A DNA stretch of 64,000 nt, taken from positions 10,388 to 74,387 of IMG/VR virus record IMGVR_UViG_3300028844_003737. The stretch is one strand, 5' to 3'. Position numbers and translations under genes: made by a program. Shown here in pieces: positions 40 through 22,424 of the stretch. The DNA comes from a virus. Positions within the stretch are counted from its first letter, which is position 1; every line of letters begins with the position of its first letter. The notes beneath the pieces were generated by a model that was not told the origin of the DNA, made no database searches, and saw nothing but the letters and a program-made list of their open reading frames with translations.

Positions 40-56
40 TTGGTATGGTTATTGTA
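40..56 (+). promoter_or_regulatory. sigma54 (-24/-12)-like promoter upstream of pilin genes
   Basis: TTGGTATGGTTATTGTA resembles YTGGCACG-N4-TTGCW; GG at 42-43 and TTG(T) at 52-55 are correctly spaced; 60 bp upstream of the pilin ATG. Confidence 0.5.
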
Positions 57-116
57 GTATATAAGTAGAATGAGTCATTAGGACAAATTCAAATTGAATA
101 AATAGGGAGGACTGAA

Positions 117-776
117 ATGTTCGATATGATAAAAAGATTTTTCAAAAAACTAAATAAAAAGCTTAGAAAGAATACAGGAAACTCACTTGCTGAATTTGCT
201 GTTACTACCGCTATGATGGCAACACTTGCTACTACAGCTGCTCCTAAGTTTGGTAATGTTGGTGCTGCTGCTAAAGAGAAGAAGTCAATTGCTAACATTG
301 ATAAGATATTAACAGTAGCCAACAACTACTACAACCAAGCAGTATCTGAAGAAGGAAAGGGAAGATTTCCTGGACAATCAAAGTATGACCAACCTGTAGG
401 TGGGATTGACTTGTCAGATGGAGCATATACTGATGAAACTCTTGAAGCATACATTGAAACTATACTTGAACAAAAACAATCATATGAATCTGAATTAGGT
501 GAGTTTGTTTATGTATTTTCAGCATCTTCTGATGACGATGACGCTTTACAAGATGATTGGATGAACTTAGAAACATCTGTTGGATTCAATTCAGGTGGAG
601 CACTTGACTTCAAAAAAGACTTTGGTAACAAAGGAATCAAGTCACCATTTCAGGATGGTTCGTATGCTTACTTAGTAATACCAGGAAGTGGTAGTGGAAC
701 AGATGCTCAAGCACCTGCTCTTGTCGTAATAGACACAGAGAATCCAGGAATGCTATTTAAAACTTTAGTACCTTAA
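117..776 (+). CDS. type IV pilin/pseudopilin-like protein
   Basis: Basic leader, then G|NSLAEF (Glu at +5) and a hydrophobic helix ending APKF; RBS GGGAGG. Confidence 0.75.
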   Translation: MFDMIKRFFKKLNKKLRKNTGNSLAEFAVTTAMMATLATTAAPKFGNVGAAAKEKKSIANIDKILTVANNYYNQAVSEEGKGRFPGQSKYDQPVGGIDLSDGAYTDETLEAYIETILEQKQSYESELGEFVYVFSASSDDDDALQDDWMNLETSVGFNSGGALDFKKDFGNKGIKSPFQDGSYAYLVIPGSGSGTDAQAPALVVIDTENPGMLFKTLVP

Positions 777-811
777 TTTAATAATAGAAACAATAACCGA
801 AAGGAAAGAAA

Positions 812-1255
812 ATGAAGAACATACTCAAAAACACAAGTAAGGGTTTTACCTTGATTGAATTAGTAATGGTTACAATCATATTGGGAATCTTAGCGGCTGT
901 AGCAATACCTCGTTATCAACAGACTGTAGATAATGCGGAAGAAGCTGCAGAAAAGACATTTGTCGATATGGTATGGGCTGGATGTGAACAAGAAGCTTCT
1001 GAAAGAATAACTGAGACTGGACTTGAGGCATGGCCTTATAATCCACTAACAGTTATTGGTAGAAGTCGTAACATATCAGTTACATTGTTTGAAGGTGTAC
1101 CCGATGAAGATAACGAATGGCAGTTTAGTGTAGATGCGGCTGGTGAACCAGCAATATTTCATCACAGACGAAACGATGAAATCTATTACTACAAGTACGA
1201 TTCATTGACATTTGAGTTGGACGAACTACCTACGCTTTATACAAACGAAGGATAA
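812..1255 (+). CDS. type IV pilin (prepilin N-terminal cleavage/methylation domain)
   Basis: Canonical class III signal KG|FTLIELVMVTIILGILAAVAIPRY. Confidence 0.9.
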   Translation: MKNILKNTSKGFTLIELVMVTIILGILAAVAIPRYQQTVDNAEEAAEKTFVDMVWAGCEQEASERITETGLEAWPYNPLTVIGRSRNISVTLFEGVPDEDNEWQFSVDAAGEPAIFHHRRNDEIYYYKYDSLTFELDELPTLYTNEG

Positions 1256-1261
1256 TTAATG

Positions 1262-1290
1262 GGGGAATTTATAACGATTTCCCCTATTTA
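1262..1290 (+). terminator. hairpin, possible terminator after pilin pair
   Basis: GGGGAA...TTCCCC stem followed by TATTT. Confidence 0.4.
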
Positions 1291-1305
1291 TTATAAAGAG
1301 GTATT

Positions 1306-1749
1306 ATGAGATTAAATCTTACAGATGATATTTTAGAACTTGTATTAGGTGGATTAATAATGGTTACTTTAGGGTTCGTATTCTTTAGAAGTGACGAATC
1401 CATTAAAGTACAAAAAGAACCTACTATTGATGACTTTTATGAGTTCCCACTACAAGCGTGGCAGACCACAGACTTACAAGGTGGAGATTGTATAAAGATT
1501 AGATATATGGTTACTAAACCAAAGACTCGTTTGATTATGAAAAGCGCTGATGGAATAAGGGTACATATGCAACCAATATCTTTGAGTCCGAGAAAAGGTG
1601 AAGATAGAATAGAAACTTATGTATGGAAACTATATCGTACAGAATGGACAGATAAAATATCACCAGGTGAATATCTTATAATAGTAGGAACCGACCACGA
1701 TAGGAGACCATCCAAAACAAACTTATCAATAAAGGTAGATGTATTATGA
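1306..1749 (+). CDS. membrane-anchored hypothetical protein (N-terminal TM, beta-rich C-terminus)
   Basis: Hydrophobic LELVLGGLIMVTLGFVFF; RBS GAGG; overlaps next gene (ATGA). Confidence 0.7.
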   Translation: MRLNLTDDILELVLGGLIMVTLGFVFFRSDESIKVQKEPTIDDFYEFPLQAWQTTDLQGGDCIKIRYMVTKPKTRLIMKSADGIRVHMQPISLSPRKGEDRIETYVWKLYRTEWTDKISPGEYLIIVGTDHDRRPSKTNLSIKVDVL

Positions 1750-2360
1750 AAAAAACCTTGACTTCTATATTTTTGATGATAGTGATAGTGAACAATCCAA
1801 TATTTTCACAAGAAATCAAACGGACATCAGAGTTCAAAAGAGATGTTGCATATGGAATAGAATGTGATGATACAGAATACAGAGATTACAAAGGCTCGCC
1901 TGCTTGGAAAGGATATGGTGGATGGATATCCGAATGCGATTCAATTCGTACAACACGATTAAATGCTGAGTTTGCTCTTAGGTCAAAAGAAAGACAAAGA
2001 CAAAAAGCAATTCAAGATAGCATAGATATTGCAACAGCATCTTTTGATGATATAGACTTAGATGTTATGTGGGAAAATACAGTGTGGGAAGAGATTGACG
2101 AAATTACAGAAGTATACGGCGAAGTAGAACAAATAACTGCTGTTGCTGGAGTTCGTGGTGCTGAAGCAGAAGATGAAGCATTGAATCATTTATACTATAG
2201 AAGAAGTATGAAAGGCTTAGCTCTAATAGATTTACAAAAAGCTTATGGCAAGTTATCAATCAAAAGGGAAAATCTTATAAAGATAAATCCAAACCATCCT
2301 AAATTGGAGAAGATAGACAATCTTTTATCTCAATTAAAAATAAAAATGAAAAAAGTATAA
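1746..2360 (+). CDS. secreted hypothetical protein
   Basis: Signal-peptide-like N-terminus MKKTLTSIFLMIVIV; contains TAVAGVRG motif. Confidence 0.65.
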   Translation: MKKTLTSIFLMIVIVNNPIFSQEIKRTSEFKRDVAYGIECDDTEYRDYKGSPAWKGYGGWISECDSIRTTRLNAEFALRSKERQRQKAIQDSIDIATASFDDIDLDVMWENTVWEEIDEITEVYGEVEQITAVAGVRGAEAEDEALNHLYYRRSMKGLALIDLQKAYGKLSIKRENLIKINPNHPKLEKIDNLLSQLKIKMKKV

Positions 2361-2415: not shown

Positions 2416-2840
2416 AATTTGAAAATTTGAAAAGTGCAGAGAGTAATTAACTCTGTATGGGATTGGTCGAATAATGAGTATACTTGAAGCTCATAAGACA
2501 ATCTAATGTGAGTTGTGGTGACTTGGAACTCTGCTGAATGTAGTAGAGGTGTAACGGTCCTCATAGACATATGACACATAATGTACTTTCAGAAATAACA
2601 AGATGATTCTTGGACTTTGTTGTGGGTAAGGATAAAACTGAAATCCCACCTTGTGGCTGAATAATTTAGTCTCAGAAGAGATAAGGCAATAGCACAGACA
2701 TTGTAGTCGCTCTAACGTAGAACTAACCATCTATTAGGAGAACCAAAGTAACTTTTGGGTGTTAGGTACAAAGTTATAATAAATTCTGAGCTGAAAGTTG
2801 TAGGTAATCATTAATCCTACATCCCCCTAATTTTCAATTT
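2416..2840 (+). ncRNA. candidate large structured non-coding RNA (~420 nt)
   Basis: No plus-strand ORF; many local hairpins; long-range helices ACTTTCAG 2585-2592/CTGAAAGT 2791-2798, CTCAGAA 2671-2677/TTCTGAG 2784-2790, TTGAAAATT 2419-2427/AATTTTCAA 2829-2837. Confidence 0.7.
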
Positions 2841-2953: not shown

Positions 2954-3481
2954 ATGAATAAATGTAAAAAATGTAATGAAACAATGGATAATCACAGAGC
3001 TCATCTTGGTTACTCCGAATGTGTTGAGTGTTCGACAGTAAAGAAATATTCATCGCATACTATATATCCACATAAAACTGGTGGGTATATCCAACCTGTA
3101 TCAGAAGAACAATCAGAAAATCTAAATAGGTTAGATAGAAGAGGTACATCTGGTAATAAACCAGCTAAAGGTATTGTAAAAGATAATAGTTGGGATAGGT
3201 GGTTGAAAGAATACTATGCTCCTAAACCAGAGAAGAAGAAGTTTGTACCTAAGCCTACGACACTACCTATTTATATACCTGTAAAGGAAGCTATGACTAA
3301 GGTGATGGATATGTATGAAAATAGGGGATATGATTCAGCATACGAACTAACACAATCATTGTATACCGATGATAAAATTTCACTTATGACTAAATCAAAG
3401 ATTACTAATGAGATAACTGAGTGGCAATATATGAGTGCTAAACAAAGAAGATGGCAAAAAAAACTGGAAATAAATGCATAA
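2954..3481 (+). CDS. hypothetical protein with N-terminal zinc finger
   Basis: CxxC...CxxC (CKKC/CVEC). Confidence 0.75.
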   Translation: MNKCKKCNETMDNHRAHLGYSECVECSTVKKYSSHTIYPHKTGGYIQPVSEEQSENLNRLDRRGTSGNKPAKGIVKDNSWDRWLKEYYAPKPEKKKFVPKPTTLPIYIPVKEAMTKVMDMYENRGYDSAYELTQSLYTDDKISLMTKSKITNEITEWQYMSAKQRRWQKKLEINA

Positions 3482-3520
3482 AGTCCTTGTTTATTAGCAA
3501 ATTTATTCGTAGCTTTATAT
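3464..3520 (+). promoter_or_regulatory. repeated early promoter
   Basis: CTGGAAATAAATGCATAAAGTCC-TTGTTT-N17-TAGCTT; near-identical copy at 5801, partial copies at 13473 and 17453. Confidence 0.8.
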
Positions 3521-3538
3521 ATAAAGAAAAGGGAAAAG

Positions 3539-5800: not shown

Positions 5801-5857
5801 CTGGAAATAATTGCAGAAAGTCCTTGTATATTAGCAAATTTATTCGTAGCTTTATAT
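5801..5857 (+). promoter_or_regulatory. repeated early promoter
   Basis: TTGTAT(5824)-ATTAGCAAATTTATTCG-TAGCTT(5847). Confidence 0.8.
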
Positions 5858-5897
5858 GTAAACAATGAGAGAAATACTAACAAAAGGAAAAAATAAT

Positions 5898-7049
5898 ATG
5901 GATAAAAACATAATCGTAAAAATTGAAAAGTCCGGCAATAGATATAATGCTTGGGACAAAGATGGTGTAAAATTTACATCACAGATTGGTACTTCTACCC
6001 GAAAGAAGGCTTTTCTAAGTAATATGGCTTTGGAACGTAGAACTGGTAAAGAAGGTAGAATTTACTGGTGGAAAGTTCCTATGGAGATGTTTGAATCTTC
6101 AATGGCTCCTGTAATCGATGTTTCATCTGTAGATGTTCCATCAGATCATGCTGAGGTTCTAAACTTCATTCACACTTCTTATAATCTCAAACCACAAGGT
6201 TTGGTTATGAAAGAACTGAAGTGGAAGTACTTAGTTCGTTCCGCTGTTCGTGGTAAGAATATTTTGATGACTGGTCCTGCTGGTTGTGGAAAAACTATGG
6301 CTGCTAAGTCATTAGTCAACTCACTTGATAGGGCTGACTTCTACTTCAACTTAGGAGCGACACAGGACCCAAGAGCTACTTTGATTGGTAATGTCCACTT
6401 CGATAAAAAGAAGGGTACTTTCTTTTCCGAATCAGTTTTTGTAAAGGCTATTCAAACTCCTAACGCTGTTATTTTGTTAGATGAGTTGAGTAGGGCTCAT
6501 CCTGATGCTTGGAATATTTTGATGACTGTCTTAGATAGTGGTCAGAGATATTTGAGACTTGATGAGGCTGATGGACAACAAACTATCAATGTGGCTGAAG
6601 GTGTTACTTTTGTTGCTACCGCTAATGTTGGTAATGAGTATACTTCTACCAGAGTTATGGATAAGGCTTTGATGGATAGATTCATTATCGTAGAAATGGA
6701 TGTTCTAAACTCTGATGAAGAGCATGGACTACTGAACTATATGTTTCCAAATGTAGATTCAGATTTACTGAAGTCTGTTGCTGAGATTGCTTCTTCAACG
6801 CGAAGTGAGTCAAAGTCTGAGGCTGGTAGGTTGTCTGCTGGAATCTCTACCAGAACTTCTGTTGAGATAGCTGGACTACTTTATGATGGCTTTGGATTAG
6901 ATGAGGCTGCTGAAGTAACTGTCTATCCTCAGTTTTCTGATGATGGTGGGCTTGAGTCTGAAAGAACTTATGTGAAACAACTTGTTCAAAAGTTTGTCTC
7001 TGATGGTTCTTCTGAGGACTTGTTCAATGAGGAAGAGATGAACAGCTAA
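5898..7049 (+). CDS. MoxR/CbbQ/CobS-family AAA+ ATPase
   Basis: Walker A GPAGCGKT, Walker B ILLDELSRA, ATAN, arginine finger MDRF; start taken after RBS AAAGGA. Confidence 0.9.
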   Translation: MDKNIIVKIEKSGNRYNAWDKDGVKFTSQIGTSTRKKAFLSNMALERRTGKEGRIYWWKVPMEMFESSMAPVIDVSSVDVPSDHAEVLNFIHTSYNLKPQGLVMKELKWKYLVRSAVRGKNILMTGPAGCGKTMAAKSLVNSLDRADFYFNLGATQDPRATLIGNVHFDKKKGTFFSESVFVKAIQTPNAVILLDELSRAHPDAWNILMTVLDSGQRYLRLDEADGQQTINVAEGVTFVATANVGNEYTSTRVMDKALMDRFIIVEMDVLNSDEEHGLLNYMFPNVDSDLLKSVAEIASSTRSESKSEAGRLSAGISTRTSVEIAGLLYDGFGLDEAAEVTVYPQFSDDGGLESERTYVKQLVQKFVSDGSSEDLFNEEEMNS

Positions 7050-17439: not shown

Positions 17440-17452
17440 AAAATAAAAAAAT

Positions 17453-17494
17453 CTGGACTTTTTGCTTGTATCTTAGCAAATTTATTCGTAGCTT
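17453..17494 (+). promoter_or_regulatory. repeated early promoter
   Basis: TTGTAT(17466)-CTTAGCAAATTTATTCG-TAGCTT(17489). Confidence 0.8.
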
Positions 17495-17517
17495 TATATG
17501 TTATGAAAGGGATAAAT

Positions 17518-19450: not shown

Positions 19451-19552
19451 ATAAATGAGCTTTTCTGGAATAAAAGTATGCCGATACTGCAATTTCTCAC
19501 TCCATGGATCATGTAAACACAAATGAGTGAGTATAAAAAAAGATCAATAAAT

Positions 19553-19594
19553 CTGGACTTTTTACTTGTATATATGCTCAAAAATGTGTAGCTT
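19553..19594 (+). promoter_or_regulatory. repeated early promoter
   Basis: CTGGACTTTTT shared with the 17453 copy; TTGTAT(19566)-N17-TAGCTT(19589). Confidence 0.75.
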
Positions 19595-19620
19595 TATATA
19601 TAATGAAAGAGGAAAATAAA

Positions 19621-21584: not shown

Positions 21585-22372
21585 TATTAGAAAATAAAGA
21601 TTGTTTAGAATTTTTATCAGAGTTAGATACAGAATCAGTAGATTTAGTTCTAACAGACCCACCTTACTTTATAGGTTATGATGGTGGTAAGGGCTGGGAT
21701 TCTGCTTGGGACAGTGAAGAAGAATATTTAGACTGGTGCATGAAGTGGAGTGAAGAATGTGTAAGAGTCTTGAAACCTAGTGGGTGTATGTATGTTTGGG
21801 GTACTACTAAAACCGATACATTTTTGAAATATAAATTAGATATTCTAAACTCTTTTGAAGATATGGTTTACCAAAGTTGGATAATATGGTCTTATGATTG
21901 GGGTGGTAGAACGAAGAAAAACTTTGCTAGAAAGCATGAGGACTTACTTATGTATTCTAAAGGTAAAGAGTTTATGTTCAATAGAGACGATATTAGAATT
22001 CCTTATATTATGAAAAAAAGTGTTCGTAAAGGAACAGAACTAAATCCACTTGGTAAGATACCAACTGATGTTTGGCCTAAAAATAATCATACAACATCAA
22101 AAGAATATGCTGGATGGCATCCAACTCAAAAGCCAGTTGAGTTATTGGAAAGAATTATAAAAGCTCATACAAATCCTCATGATGTAGTATTAGATATATT
22201 CAATGGAAGTGGAAGTACTACTATAGCTTGTGCTAATACTCAAAGAGATTTCTTAGGGTGCGAGTTAGATAAAGAATATTATGATAAGTCTCTGAAGAGA
22301 ATTGATGAGTTGACTGGTATTGGTAAGTTTACAAGTAATAAACTAATTGATATTTTAGGAAAAAGTACTTGA
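21581..22372 (+). CDS. amino (N6-A/N4-C) DNA methyltransferase, beta class
   Basis: Motif IV TDPPY near the N-terminus, HPTQKP, motif I LDIFNGSGST near the C-terminus. Confidence 0.93.
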   Translation: MILENKDCLEFLSELDTESVDLVLTDPPYFIGYDGGKGWDSAWDSEEEYLDWCMKWSEECVRVLKPSGCMYVWGTTKTDTFLKYKLDILNSFEDMVYQSWIIWSYDWGGRTKKNFARKHEDLLMYSKGKEFMFNRDDIRIPYIMKKSVRKGTELNPLGKIPTDVWPKNNHTTSKEYAGWHPTQKPVELLERIIKAHTNPHDVVLDIFNGSGSTTIACANTQRDFLGCELDKEYYDKSLKRIDELTGIGKFTSNKLIDILGKST

Positions 22373-22397
22373 CTTTTAGCATAATTATTTGTAGCTT
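22369..22397 (+). promoter_or_regulatory. repeated early promoter
   Basis: TTGACT-N17-TAGCTT. Confidence 0.75.
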
Positions 22398-22424
22398 TAG
22401 ATATAATAAAATGGAAAATAAAAA

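What the first reader, a model, noticed from the sequence alone, without database searches (positions are those of the whole stretch)
40..2360. Phage-encoded type IV pilin pair with its own sigma54-like promoter
Seen: two tandem genes with class III signal peptides (G|FTLIEL, G|NSLAEF), a -24/-12-like box, and two more envelope-targeted ORFs. No assembly ATPase or prepilin peptidase occurs in the window. Known: pilA is RpoN-dependent in several bacteria, and pili are common phage receptors. Inference: this is a host-captured cassette whose pilins enter, jam or re-skin the host pilus (superinfection exclusion or altered adhesion). The pilins should also indicate the host; they look to me like Marinimicrobia (SAR406)-type pilins, which is unverified.
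Basis: partly seen in the sequence, partly recalled or inferred. Interest (0 to 1): 0.7.

Follow-up and report, generated by a model that had tools for sequence, protein, structure and literature searches.

The report
Phage pilin cassette with host sigma-54 switch
A large uncultured ocean phage carries pilus-subunit genes copied from its probable host, SAR406 (Marinimicrobia) bacteria, together with the host's sigma-54 promoter, so infected cells probably put phage-made subunits into their own pili; phage-encoded pilins already have laboratory precedents.

Summary

**What is there**
- Window 117-2360 holds four co-oriented genes:
  - A, an atypical prepilin (G|NSLAEF)
  - B, a canonical prepilin (G|FTLIEL)
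  - C, with an N-terminal membrane helix
  - D, with a Sec signal peptide
- The contig is a 74-kb IMG/VR myovirus-like record with phage genes on both sides.
- A-(1-3 B)-C-D recurs in about 60 related viral contigs, while the flanks vary.

**Promoter**
- The -24/-12 box (41-56) occurs once in the contig.
- It is conserved upstream of A in relatives, two of which carry a perfect TGGCAT-N5-TTGC.

**Host**
- Full-length A homologues lie almost only in Marinimicrobia genomes, in 30 of 54 genomes of one family.
- There they form tandem arrays beside genes for PilD, an MshE-type ATPase, a sigma-54 activator and PilC.
- 60 of 76 host A genes carry the same box.
- Host and phage promoters share GTTACA/TGTAAC upstream sites.
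- D's C-terminal half matches a protein of the same host cluster.
- The phage records show no peptidase, ATPase, RpoN or activator.

**Function**
- Function is inferred, not shown. The most likely effect is re-surfacing or blocking of the host pilus to exclude other phages.

**Earlier reports**
- This scan reported the same cassette before on other phage genomes.

The parts
41..56 (+). Sigma-54-type -24/-12 box TGGTATGGTTATTGTA (GG at 42-43, GT instead of GC at 54-55); predicted start near 67
   Evidence: Only exact match in the 74-kb contig. Conserved in 31 non-redundant relatives. Host A-type pilin genes carry TGGCAY-N5-TTGY at the same distance.
57..66 (+). Conserved A+T-rich element (GTATATAAGT; family consensus nTATATAGGTA) between the -12 element and the predicted start
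   Evidence: High information content at these columns in the alignment of relatives. Similar ATATATAAGTA follows the box in host loci L101 and L102.
105..110 (+). Shine-Dalgarno GGGAGG, 6 nt before the ATG of A
   Evidence: Read from the sequence. Relatives have AAGGAGAAC at the same place.
117..776 (+). Gene A: atypical prepilin, 219 aa, leader of 21 residues, cleavage motif G|NSLAEF; homologue of the sigma-54-driven tandem pilin genes of the host
   Evidence: No Pfam, NCBIfam or PHROG hit. Profile-profile match to the B family: 95.5% probability, E 1.3e-8, over leader plus alpha-1. Profile hits to geopilin and MshA N-termini in PDB. 35-47% identical over the full length to host genes.
812..1255 (+). 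Gene B: canonical prepilin, 147 aa, G|FTLIEL
   Evidence: Pfam N_methyl 3.4e-7. TIGR02532 and GspG/PilA N-terminal matches. PDB profile hits to PilA, MshA and GspG. Full-length alignment with host B-type pilins. Sits in a phage-only clade of 36.
1261..1284 (+). Terminator-like hairpin followed by TATTTATTAT, between B and C
   Evidence: Consensus scan. Many relatives lack this gap and have B, C and D abutting or overlapping, so it may only attenuate.
1306..1749 (+). Gene C: 147 aa, one N-terminal membrane helix and a beta-rich body; phage-specific
   Evidence: Present in 47 of 65 related loci. Hydropathy. No family hit. Not found with this query in five host genomes. The ESM Atlas gave only viral hypothetical clusters.
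1746..2360 (+). Gene D: 204 aa, Sec signal peptide, Cys-containing N-terminal part, and a C-terminal half homologous to a small exported protein of the host pilus cluster
   Evidence: Present in 60 of 65 related loci. Residues about 96-203 are 50-53% identical to a 152-178 aa protein in all five host genomes tested. In G006 that protein is the last gene of the same-strand pilus cluster. The family has only 124 clusters in 1.84 billion representatives. AF2 model is helical, pLDDT 70, with no PDB fold match.

Best explanation
This is a host-derived pilin cassette carried by a large uncultured marine myovirus-like phage whose host is most likely one family of Marinimicrobia (SAR406).

Proposed steps:
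1. The cassette keeps the control region of the host's pilin genes: upstream GTTACA/TGTAAC activator sites, an A+T-rich spacer and a -24/-12 promoter. It is therefore read by host RNA polymerase with RpoN, switched on by the sigma-54 activator encoded in the host's pilus operon. Phage pilins are then made when the cell's pilus programme is on.
2. Prepilins A and B are cut by the host prepilin peptidase and handed to the host's MshE-type type IV pilus machine. The phage encodes no peptidase, ATPase, platform or secretin.
3. C (membrane-anchored) and D (exported, related to a host cluster protein) act in the envelope with them.
4. Most likely outcome: a pilus with phage-specified surface or tip subunits, or a blocked pilus. 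It would no longer serve as a receptor for sibling or competing phages, giving superinfection exclusion or protection of progeny.

Shown: gene identities, conservation, host homology, promoter and enhancer architecture, presence of host RpoN, activator, PilD and PilB, and their absence from the phage records searched.
Inferred: steps 1-4 as processes, and above all the outcome in step 4.
For: - Cassette conserved as a unit in related viral contigs while the flanks change: A in 55, B in 64, C in 47 and D in 60 of 65 loci; flanking genes in 2-14.
- Class III leader features are invariant.
- A homologues occur in Marinimicrobia genomes as tandem arrays, followed by B-type pilins.
- The arrays lie beside genes for a response regulator, PilD, an MshE-type ATPase, a sigma-54 activator and PilC. 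A PilM/PilO/secretin/TPR block lies downstream.
- Box TGGCAY-N5-TTGY precedes 60 of 76 host A genes and only 2 of 77 B-type genes. A reversed-sequence control gave 36 matches in 843 kb.
- The phage box is unique in the contig and conserved. It is a perfect consensus in L018 and L036.
- GTTACA/TGTAAC hexamers run at 13.0 per kb upstream of phage boxes against a 0.79 background, and 7.6 against 0.76 in hosts. Other intergenic regions of this genome have 0.67 per kb.
- RpoN, PilD and PilB-like genes are present in all five host genomes tested.
- None of these, and no true activator, was found in five phage records.
- Phage and host pilins interleave on trees: at least 5 switches for the B type, and three phage clusters for A.
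- Laboratory precedents: P-FimU and P-PilA (PMC12952977) and the SNJ2 pilins (PMC12426801).
Against: - Most phage boxes, including this one, have GT rather than the near-invariant GC at -12 and T rather than C at -23. Two relatives (L002, L032), one nearly identical in its proteins, have AG instead of GG at -24.
- The window's own upstream region has only one exact GTTACA plus degenerate copies.
- There is no transcript-start evidence. RNA-library contigs cover the region, but some run across the promoter.
- The AF2 model of A was unusable (pLDDT 37), so A's globular fold is unconfirmed.
- C has no host counterpart, and neither C nor D has a known function.
- The phage records are 40-72% complete, so missing machinery is 'not found', not 'absent'.
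- Nothing here distinguishes exclusion from jamming or from keeping the pilus working.
Confidence: 0.6

Rival explanations
1. Pilus maintenance rather than exclusion. The phage supplies pilins and an accessory protein to keep or boost the host's pilus function during infection, when host gene expression declines. That function could be attachment to particles or cells, or uptake of DNA or nutrients. The logic is that of cyanophage psbA.
For: The cassette uses the host's own regulatory wiring and keeps all processing features. D is a homologue of a host cluster protein rather than an inhibitor-like novelty. B1/B2-type pilins of relatives stay close to host genes, at up to 64-66% identity. SNJ2-encoded pilins promote biofilm formation and motility (PMC12426801).
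Against: The window's A and B belong to phage-only clades on long stems, not to near-copies of host genes. Only subunits are carried. Nothing shows that pilin supply limits the pilus during infection.
Confidence: 0.22
2. Dominant-negative jamming. Divergent phage pilins, together with C and D, enter the assembly platform and stall it. Pili then disappear from infected cells, which is another route to exclusion.
For: Phage A sits on a long stem (1.21 changes per column) away from host A genes. C and the Cys-containing N-terminal part of D are phage-specific additions. Truncated phage PilA-like proteins have been proposed to act this way (PMC12952977).
Against: A and B are full-length, with conserved globular-domain motifs under long-term selection. 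A simple poison would not need 2-4 different intact pilins.
Confidence: 0.12
3. The conserved box is not a sigma-54 promoter. It would be a phage-specific promoter or a binding site for a dimeric regulator (GTACA-N5-TGTAC is palindromic in many relatives), with the TATATA element acting as a -10.
For: T replaces C at both -23 and -12, which creates an inverted repeat in many relatives. AG replaces GG in L002 and L032. A conserved TATATAGGTA follows directly.
Against: The motif occurs once per genome, not as a promoter class. Spacing is exactly that of -24/-12. Relatives L018 and L036 have the perfect consensus. Host pilin promoters show the full range from TTGCT to TTGTA/TTGTT. The upstream hexamers are shared with host promoters. 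No sigma-70-type -35/-10 pair fits (and reading of the sequence).
Confidence: 0.12
4. Assembly artefact: a piece of host chromosome joined to phage DNA.
For: The genes have close chromosomal relatives.
Against: The same cassette lies between phage genes in about 60 independent viral contigs from many samples, with conserved neighbours such as the manA RNA and CobT. There is no shift in composition. The phage genes form their own clades. The host locus has a different gene order and content.
Confidence: 0.02

Closest known systems
P-FimU and P-PilA: type IV pilus subunits encoded by Pseudomonas aeruginosa F10-like prophages, Xylella prophages and some virulent phages (Sztanko et al., Cell Rep 2026, PMC12952977)
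   Same: Phage-encoded homologues of host pilus subunits with no assembly machinery. P-FimU is shown to be built into the host pilus and to block phages that bind it. The sequences are diverse, as expected from phage-versus-phage competition.
   Different: Here there is a 4-6 gene cassette: an A-type pilin, 1-3 B-type pilins, a membrane protein and an exported cluster-protein homologue. It carries the host's sigma-54 promoter and enhancer sites. The carriers are large uncultured marine phages and the pilus is an MshE-type system of Marinimicrobia. There is no close sequence relationship to FimU or PilA beyond the N-terminal helix, and no experiment.
SNJ2 provirus pilins PilA1/PilA2 of Natrinema sp. 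J7 (Xiang et al., Cell Rep 2025, PMC12426801)
   Same: Two tandem virus-encoded type IV pilins that use the host's secretion machinery. They form the dominant surface filaments and change host behaviour.
   Different: That system is an archaeal temperate virus, and its pili serve as receptor for a second virus. No sigma-54 control is involved. This cassette is bacterial and sits in a probably lytic myovirus-like phage.
RpoN-dependent pilin genes with an operon-encoded activator (e.g. pilA with PilS-PilR in Pseudomonas and Myxococcus; from general knowledge)
   Same: A -24/-12 promoter directly before the pilin gene, upstream activator sites, and a sigma-54 activator and response regulator encoded with the pilus genes.
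   Different: Here the control region has moved into a phage genome without its activator, and most phage copies have drifted to TGGTAY...TTGTA.
PHROG 3433 'pilin' and other pilin-like ORFs in cultured phages (Vibrio phage 033B/GH32, Acinetobacter phage MD-2021a ppdD, Dolichospermum phage Dfl-JY45)
   Same: Prepilin-type N-terminus encoded by a phage.
   Different: The similarity covers only the N-terminal 40-70 residues. A has no match at all in 50,697 phage records.

Membership tests
Type IV pilin / class III signal peptide protein | Short basic leader ending in Gly, then a hydrophobic helix of about 20 residues with Glu at +5 | tested here: met
   A has G21|NSLAE26F and B has G11|FTLIE16L. 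Both positions are invariant across the alignments.
Type IV pilin / class III signal peptide protein | Match to curated N-terminal methylation models (Pfam PF07963, TIGR02532) | tested here: met
   Met for B only (30 bits against a 21.2 cut-off; 28.4 against 16.3). A gives no hit to either model. A is linked instead by profile-profile comparison to B (95.5%, E 1.3e-8) and by profile hits to geopilin (2e-4) and MshA (1e-3) in PDB.
Type IV pilin / class III signal peptide protein | Pilin fold: long N-terminal helix packed on a C-terminal beta-sheet domain | tested here: inconclusive
   The AF2 model of A from a 19-sequence alignment had pLDDT 37. Only the secondary-structure order (helix 22-75, C-terminal strands) is compatible. 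B was not modelled.
Type IV pilin / class III signal peptide protein | Cleavage and N-methylation by a prepilin peptidase, and assembly by a PilB/PilC machine | not testable with these tools
   The host genomes encode PilD (with the A24_N domain), an MshE-type PilB and PilC next to the homologous pilin genes. The phage records show none.
Sigma-54 (RpoN) dependent promoter | GG at -24 and GC at -12 separated by exactly 10 nt (TGGCAC-N5-TTGC) | tested here: inconclusive
   The window has TGGTAT-N5-TTGTA. GG and the spacing are met, but GC is GT. Relatives L018 and L036 have the full consensus. Host pilin promoters include TTGTA and TTGTT variants. L002 and L032 have AG at -24.
Sigma-54 (RpoN) dependent promoter | Upstream activator (enhancer) sites about 80-200 nt before the promoter | tested here: met
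   GTTACA/TGTAAC hexamers are enriched 16-fold upstream of the phage boxes and 10-fold upstream of the host boxes. 31 of 38 phage regions have two or more. The window itself has one exact copy at -77 plus degenerate copies.
Sigma-54 (RpoN) dependent promoter | RpoN and a cognate AAA+ activator available in the cell | tested here: met
   Sigma54_DBD is present in 5 of 5 host genomes. A Sigma54_activat + HTH_8 protein is encoded between the ATPase and PilC genes of the pilus operon. None was found in the phage records. The only hit there is the CobS-like AAA+ protein, which has no GAFTGA motif.
Sigma-54 (RpoN) dependent promoter | Transcription start about 12 nt after the -12 element, dependent on RpoN | not testable with these tools
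   Only assembled contigs of RNA libraries were available, and they cannot show starts.
Phage-encoded pilus component acting in superinfection exclusion (P-FimU type) | Phage gene homologous to a structural subunit of the host's own pilus | tested here: met
   A is 35-47% and B about 40-46% identical to genes of the Marinimicrobia pilin arrays.
Phage-encoded pilus component acting in superinfection exclusion (P-FimU type) | Incorporation into the pilus and a block of phage adsorption | not testable with these tools
   There is no cultured host or phage.
MSHA-like (MshE-type) type IV pilus system, as the host system that the cassette derives from | Assembly ATPase with an N-terminal MshEN c-di-GMP-binding domain, an ExeA/MshM-like AAA protein, a secretin and a TPR protein in one cluster with the pilins | tested here: met
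   Pfam and NCBIfam hits on L104 and L123: MshEN 6e-13 and an MshE-related c-di-GMP motif, AAA_22 fused to PilM, PilO, secretin and TPR. No NCBIfam equivalog cut-off is reached, so this is a resemblance, not membership of the Vibrio MSHA family.

The most novel reading that the evidence does not exclude
The cassette makes the phage read the host's pilus-regulatory state through the host's own sigma-54 activator. It then has the infected cell build a phage-specified pilus that changes the cell's behaviour, for example attachment to particles or to neighbouring cells, to the phage's advantage. That would be virus-directed surface behaviour in one of the most abundant deep-ocean bacterial groups, rather than plain receptor masking. 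C and D would be the phage-specific adaptors that divert the host machine.
Probability: 0.15. Interest if true: 0.8.

Novelty: new variant of a known kind. Interest (0 to 1): 0.6.

Why it matters
- **Host assignment.** SAR406/Marinimicrobia are abundant in the dark ocean, have no cultured marine members, and no isolated phages of the group are known to me. The cassette gives a mechanistically grounded host assignment for a very common group of large marine phages. Thousands of A and B homologues occur in ocean metagenomes. The assignment goes down to one bacterial family, because the pilins need that family's peptidase, pilus machine and activator.
- **Expression logic.** A lytic-type phage can tie a gene set to a host signalling circuit (sigma-54 plus a pilus-specific activator) instead of to its own early or late programme.
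- **Reach of a recent finding.** It extends the recently demonstrated 'phage replaces pilus parts' strategy from Pseudomonas prophages to the open ocean.
- **Pilus as battleground.** It points to the host's tandem, individually promoted pilin arrays as a likely phage-host battleground.

Tried and rejected
- **AF2 of A** (19-sequence alignment): pLDDT 37, unusable.
- **AF2 of D**: pLDDT 70, helical. Foldseek against PDB gave nothing at E <= 0.001, only weak BamD/TPR-like rows.
- **ESM Atlas for C and D**: no usable hit.
- **Pfam, PHROGs and NCBIfam**: nothing for A, C or D.
- **tblastn against 50,697 phage records**: A has no match. B matches only N-terminal stretches.
- **RNA evidence**: four marine metatranscriptome runs of one study hold the stretch. 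Only assembled contigs are available, the depth is flat per contig, and some contigs cross the promoter. This gives no start site and no proof of transcription.
- **CobS-like AAA+ protein (5865-7049) as a phage-encoded sigma-54 activator**: rejected. The Sigma54_activat match of 25-27 bits is generic AAA+ similarity, since the control also hits organisms without RpoN. AAA_5 and CbbQ_C score higher, and the protein has no GAFTGA motif.
- **Alternative promoter readings**: I considered the Bacteroidota -33/-7 type, sigma-70 with an extended -10, a T4-late-like TATA box and the genome's own early promoter (CTTGT/ACT ... TAGCTTTATAT). None fits the conserved positions.
- **Upstream gene L001:8779-9459**, noted by another reader as MshEN-like: no Pfam MshEN match at E <= 0.1.
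- **Phylum-wide sample**: only 2 full-length A hits in 151 genomes. This led to the family-level test.
Full report
**Context**

The window is bases 10388-74387 of a 74,387-bp IMG/VR viral record, estimated at about 40% complete. Nearly all long ORFs are on the + strand and G+C is an even 31-38%.

- Upstream of the window, the same contig encodes PhoH and a radical-SAM protein.
- Downstream are CobT- and CobS-like genes, a baseplate wedge protein and an SbcC-like nuclease.
- The baseplate wedge protein is 48% identical to that of Microcystis phage Mel-JY01 and 41% to that of Flavobacterium phage immuto.

So the finding lies inside a large myovirus-like phage genome, not at a junction with host DNA.

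**The observation**

Four genes follow one another.

| Gene | Coordinates | Length | Key feature |
|---|---|---|---|
| A | 117-776 | 219 aa | G\|NSLAEF prepilin-type leader |
| B | 812-1255 | 147 aa | G\|FTLIEL prepilin-type leader |
| C | 1306-1749 | 147 aa | N-terminal membrane helix |
| D | 1746-2360 | 204 aa | Sec signal peptide |

- **B is a textbook prepilin.** It passes Pfam N_methyl and TIGR02532 above their cut-offs. A profile of its family hits PilA, MshA, geopilin and GspG in the PDB.
- **A matches no curated model, but is a pilin by four lines of evidence:**
  - Its leader and helix are invariant in the family.
  - Its profile aligns with the B profile at 95.5% probability, E 1.3e-8, over leader plus alpha-1.
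  - It hits geopilin and MshA N-termini in the PDB.
  - Its cellular homologues sit in pilin arrays next to a prepilin peptidase gene (see "The source").
- The +1 residue of A (Asn or Gln) is also the rule in the host homologues.
- The hydrophobic N-termini of C and D are conserved in relatives.
- A terminator-like hairpin lies between B and C. Many relatives have B, C and D abutting, so the whole set is probably one operon.

**Conservation**

B and A each have thousands of homologues in ocean metagenomes, on contigs of up to 135 kb.

- In 65 IMG/VR loci found with B, the hit counts were A 55, B 64, C 47 and D 60. The flanking genes of this window recur in only 2-14 of them.
- The order is A-B-C-D or A-B1-B2-B3-D-C. 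About half the loci carry two or three G|FTLIEL pilins.
- The cassette is therefore an old, selected unit of a broad phage lineage. Identity falls to 45% for A and 41% for B.

**The promoter**

The box TGGTATGGTTATTGTA (41-56) is the only exact match to TGGYAY-N5-TTGYA in the whole contig. One such match would not be surprising by chance.

- The same element stands 45-85 nt before A in 31 non-redundant relatives. Positions TTTGG-A and TTG-A are almost invariant, and an A+T-rich TATATAGGTA follows.
- Two relatives have the perfect sigma-54 consensus, TGGCAT-N5-TTGCA and TGGCAT-N5-TTGCT.
- The predicted start is near 67, which leaves a leader of about 50 nt with a strong Shine-Dalgarno sequence.

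**The source**

A pattern scan of one genome for each of 185,579 species with the A alignment returned 41 loci. Nearly all that carry a taxon name are Marinimicrobia/Neomarinimicrobiota MAGs and single-cell genomes, including contigs of 220 and 583 kb. One hit, a 2.7-kb contig in a MAG, is a binned phage fragment.

- In the host genomes, A-type genes form tandem arrays of 2-6 copies, followed by B-type pilins and further prepilins. Two genomes have 9-16 B-type genes in a row.
- In locus L104/L123 the array is preceded by genes for:
  - a response regulator;
  - PilD;
  - a PilB-like ATPase with an MshEN c-di-GMP-binding domain;
  - a sigma-54 activator (Sigma54_activat + HTH_8);
  - PilC.
- The array is followed by genes for a LamG protein, an MshM/PilM fusion, a PilO-like protein, a secretin, a CHASE2 cyclase, an FG-GAP protein, a TPR protein and a 152-aa exported protein.
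- That last protein is 50-53% identical to the C-terminal half of phage D. It is present on the same contig as the pilus genes in all five host genomes tested.
- C was not found in those genomes with this query.
- All five host genomes encode RpoN, one or two prepilin peptidases and two PilB-type ATPases.
- Full-length A-type pilins occur in 30 of 54 genomes of one GTDB family, but in only 2 of 151 genomes sampled across the phylum.

**Shared control region**

- 60 of 76 host A-type genes have TGGCAY-N5-TTGY 30-75 nt before their start. Only 2 of 77 B-type genes do. A reversed-sequence control gives 36 matches in 843 kb, or about one expected.
- Several host boxes carry the phage-like TTGTA or TTGTT at -12.
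- The region 20-200 nt upstream of the boxes is enriched in GTTACA/TGTAAC hexamers, often as inverted pairs:

| Region | Hexamers per kb upstream of boxes | Background per kb |
|---|---|---|
| Phages | 13.0 | 0.79 |
| Hosts | 7.6 | 0.76 |

- 31 of 38 phage regions have at least two hexamers. Other intergenic regions of this genome have 0.67 per kb.
- The window's own upstream region has one exact hexamer (window -77) and several degenerate copies, followed by the terminator of the preceding gene.
- The five phage records searched have no RpoN and no real activator.
- The phage cassette thus keeps the full enhancer-promoter layout of the host's pilin genes, and must depend on the host's RpoN and pilus activator. 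This also makes the host assignment stronger than gene similarity alone.

**Evolution**

- On a tree of 106 A-type proteins, the phage sequences fall in three clusters among the host copies that lie next to the B-type genes.
  - One is a clade of 30 on a long stem, and it includes this window.
  - One is a group of 7 that is sister to a single-cell genome's gene.
  - One is a pair.
  - A single origin is not excluded.
- For B-type pilins, starred branches force at least five host-phage switches. The window's B lies in a phage-only clade of 36.
- Pilin genes have therefore moved repeatedly between these phages and their hosts.

**Function**

Nothing here measures function. The features are:
- intact processing signals;
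- dependence on host machinery;
- coupling to the host's pilus regulator;
- fast-diverging exposed domains;
- host arrays of individually promoted pilin paralogues.

Together these fit best with phage subunits entering the host pilus and changing or blocking a phage receptor. This has been shown for P-FimU in Pseudomonas and proposed for P-PilA-like genes of virulent phages (PMC12952977). SNJ2 shows that virus-encoded pilins can also build the dominant filaments and change host behaviour (PMC12426801). Maintenance of pilus function and dominant-negative jamming remain open. C and D have no assignable role. D's family is small, at 124 clusters in 1.84 billion representatives, and its helical model matches no solved fold.

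**Weak points**

- The box has GT for GC at -12, and two relatives have AG for GG at -24.
- There is no start-site evidence. RNA-library contigs cover the stretch, but some cross the promoter.
- The AF2 model of A failed.
- All phage records are incomplete.

**Earlier reports of this scan**

I reached these conclusions first and then looked up the scan's notes. The same cassette had already been reported on other phage genomes, with the same reading: host-derived pilins of SAR406 with a sigma-54 control region. Those notes are not independent evidence.

Added or quantified here:
- the homology of D to a protein of the host pilus cluster;
- the family-level restriction of the A-type pilin;
- the counts for box and enhancer sites with controls;
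- the two trees.

Noticed in passing
window 2621-2825 (+): The structured non-coding stretch after gene D is a manA RNA (Rfam RF01745, 69.3 bits against a gathering score of 55.2, E 8.5e-17, full-length). This is a known motif. The stretch is conserved after the cassette in relatives, seen as shared antisense pseudo-ORFs in L033 and L057.
   Followed up: partly
window 3464-3530, 5801-5867, 17443-17509, 19543-19609, 22360-22410: A repeated promoter-like block, CTTGT/ACT ... TTAGCAAATTTATTCGTAGCTTTATAT, precedes several genes (CobT-like, CobS-like and others). It is probably this phage's own early or middle promoter class. The pilin cassette does not use it.
   Followed up: partly
L104:9956-17626 and L101:9956-20116 (host loci): Marinimicrobia genomes carry very long tandem arrays of pilin genes: 2-6 A-type copies, each with its own sigma-54 box, and up to about 16 B-type copies. 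This suggests strong diversifying selection on the pilus surface.
   Followed up: partly
L104:8763-9773 and L123:7299-10208 (host locus): An Mrr-type restriction endonuclease gene sits between pilC and the first pilin gene. A CHASE2 adenylate/guanylate cyclase gene lies inside the pilus assembly block. The MshM-like AAA protein is fused to a PilM-like domain (960 aa).
   Followed up: no
L033:11518-11895: Some relatives carry a small TonB C-terminal domain gene (Pfam TonB_C, 3.9e-9) directly after gene D. This suggests the cassette is part of a wider set of envelope-directed phage genes.
   Followed up: no
L001:8779-9459 and L001:9472-9843 (upstream of the window): The gene that another reader called MshEN-like gave no Pfam MshEN match at E <= 0.1. 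The next gene has a weak thioredoxin match (4e-4, below the cut-off). These upstream genes are shared by only 8-11 of the 65 related loci.
   Followed up: partly
L002 and L032, upstream of gene A: Two relatives, one with A and B 96-97% identical to this window's, have TTTAGTAC instead of TTTGGTAC at the -24 element. Either the promoter is decaying there or the element tolerates this change.
   Followed up: no
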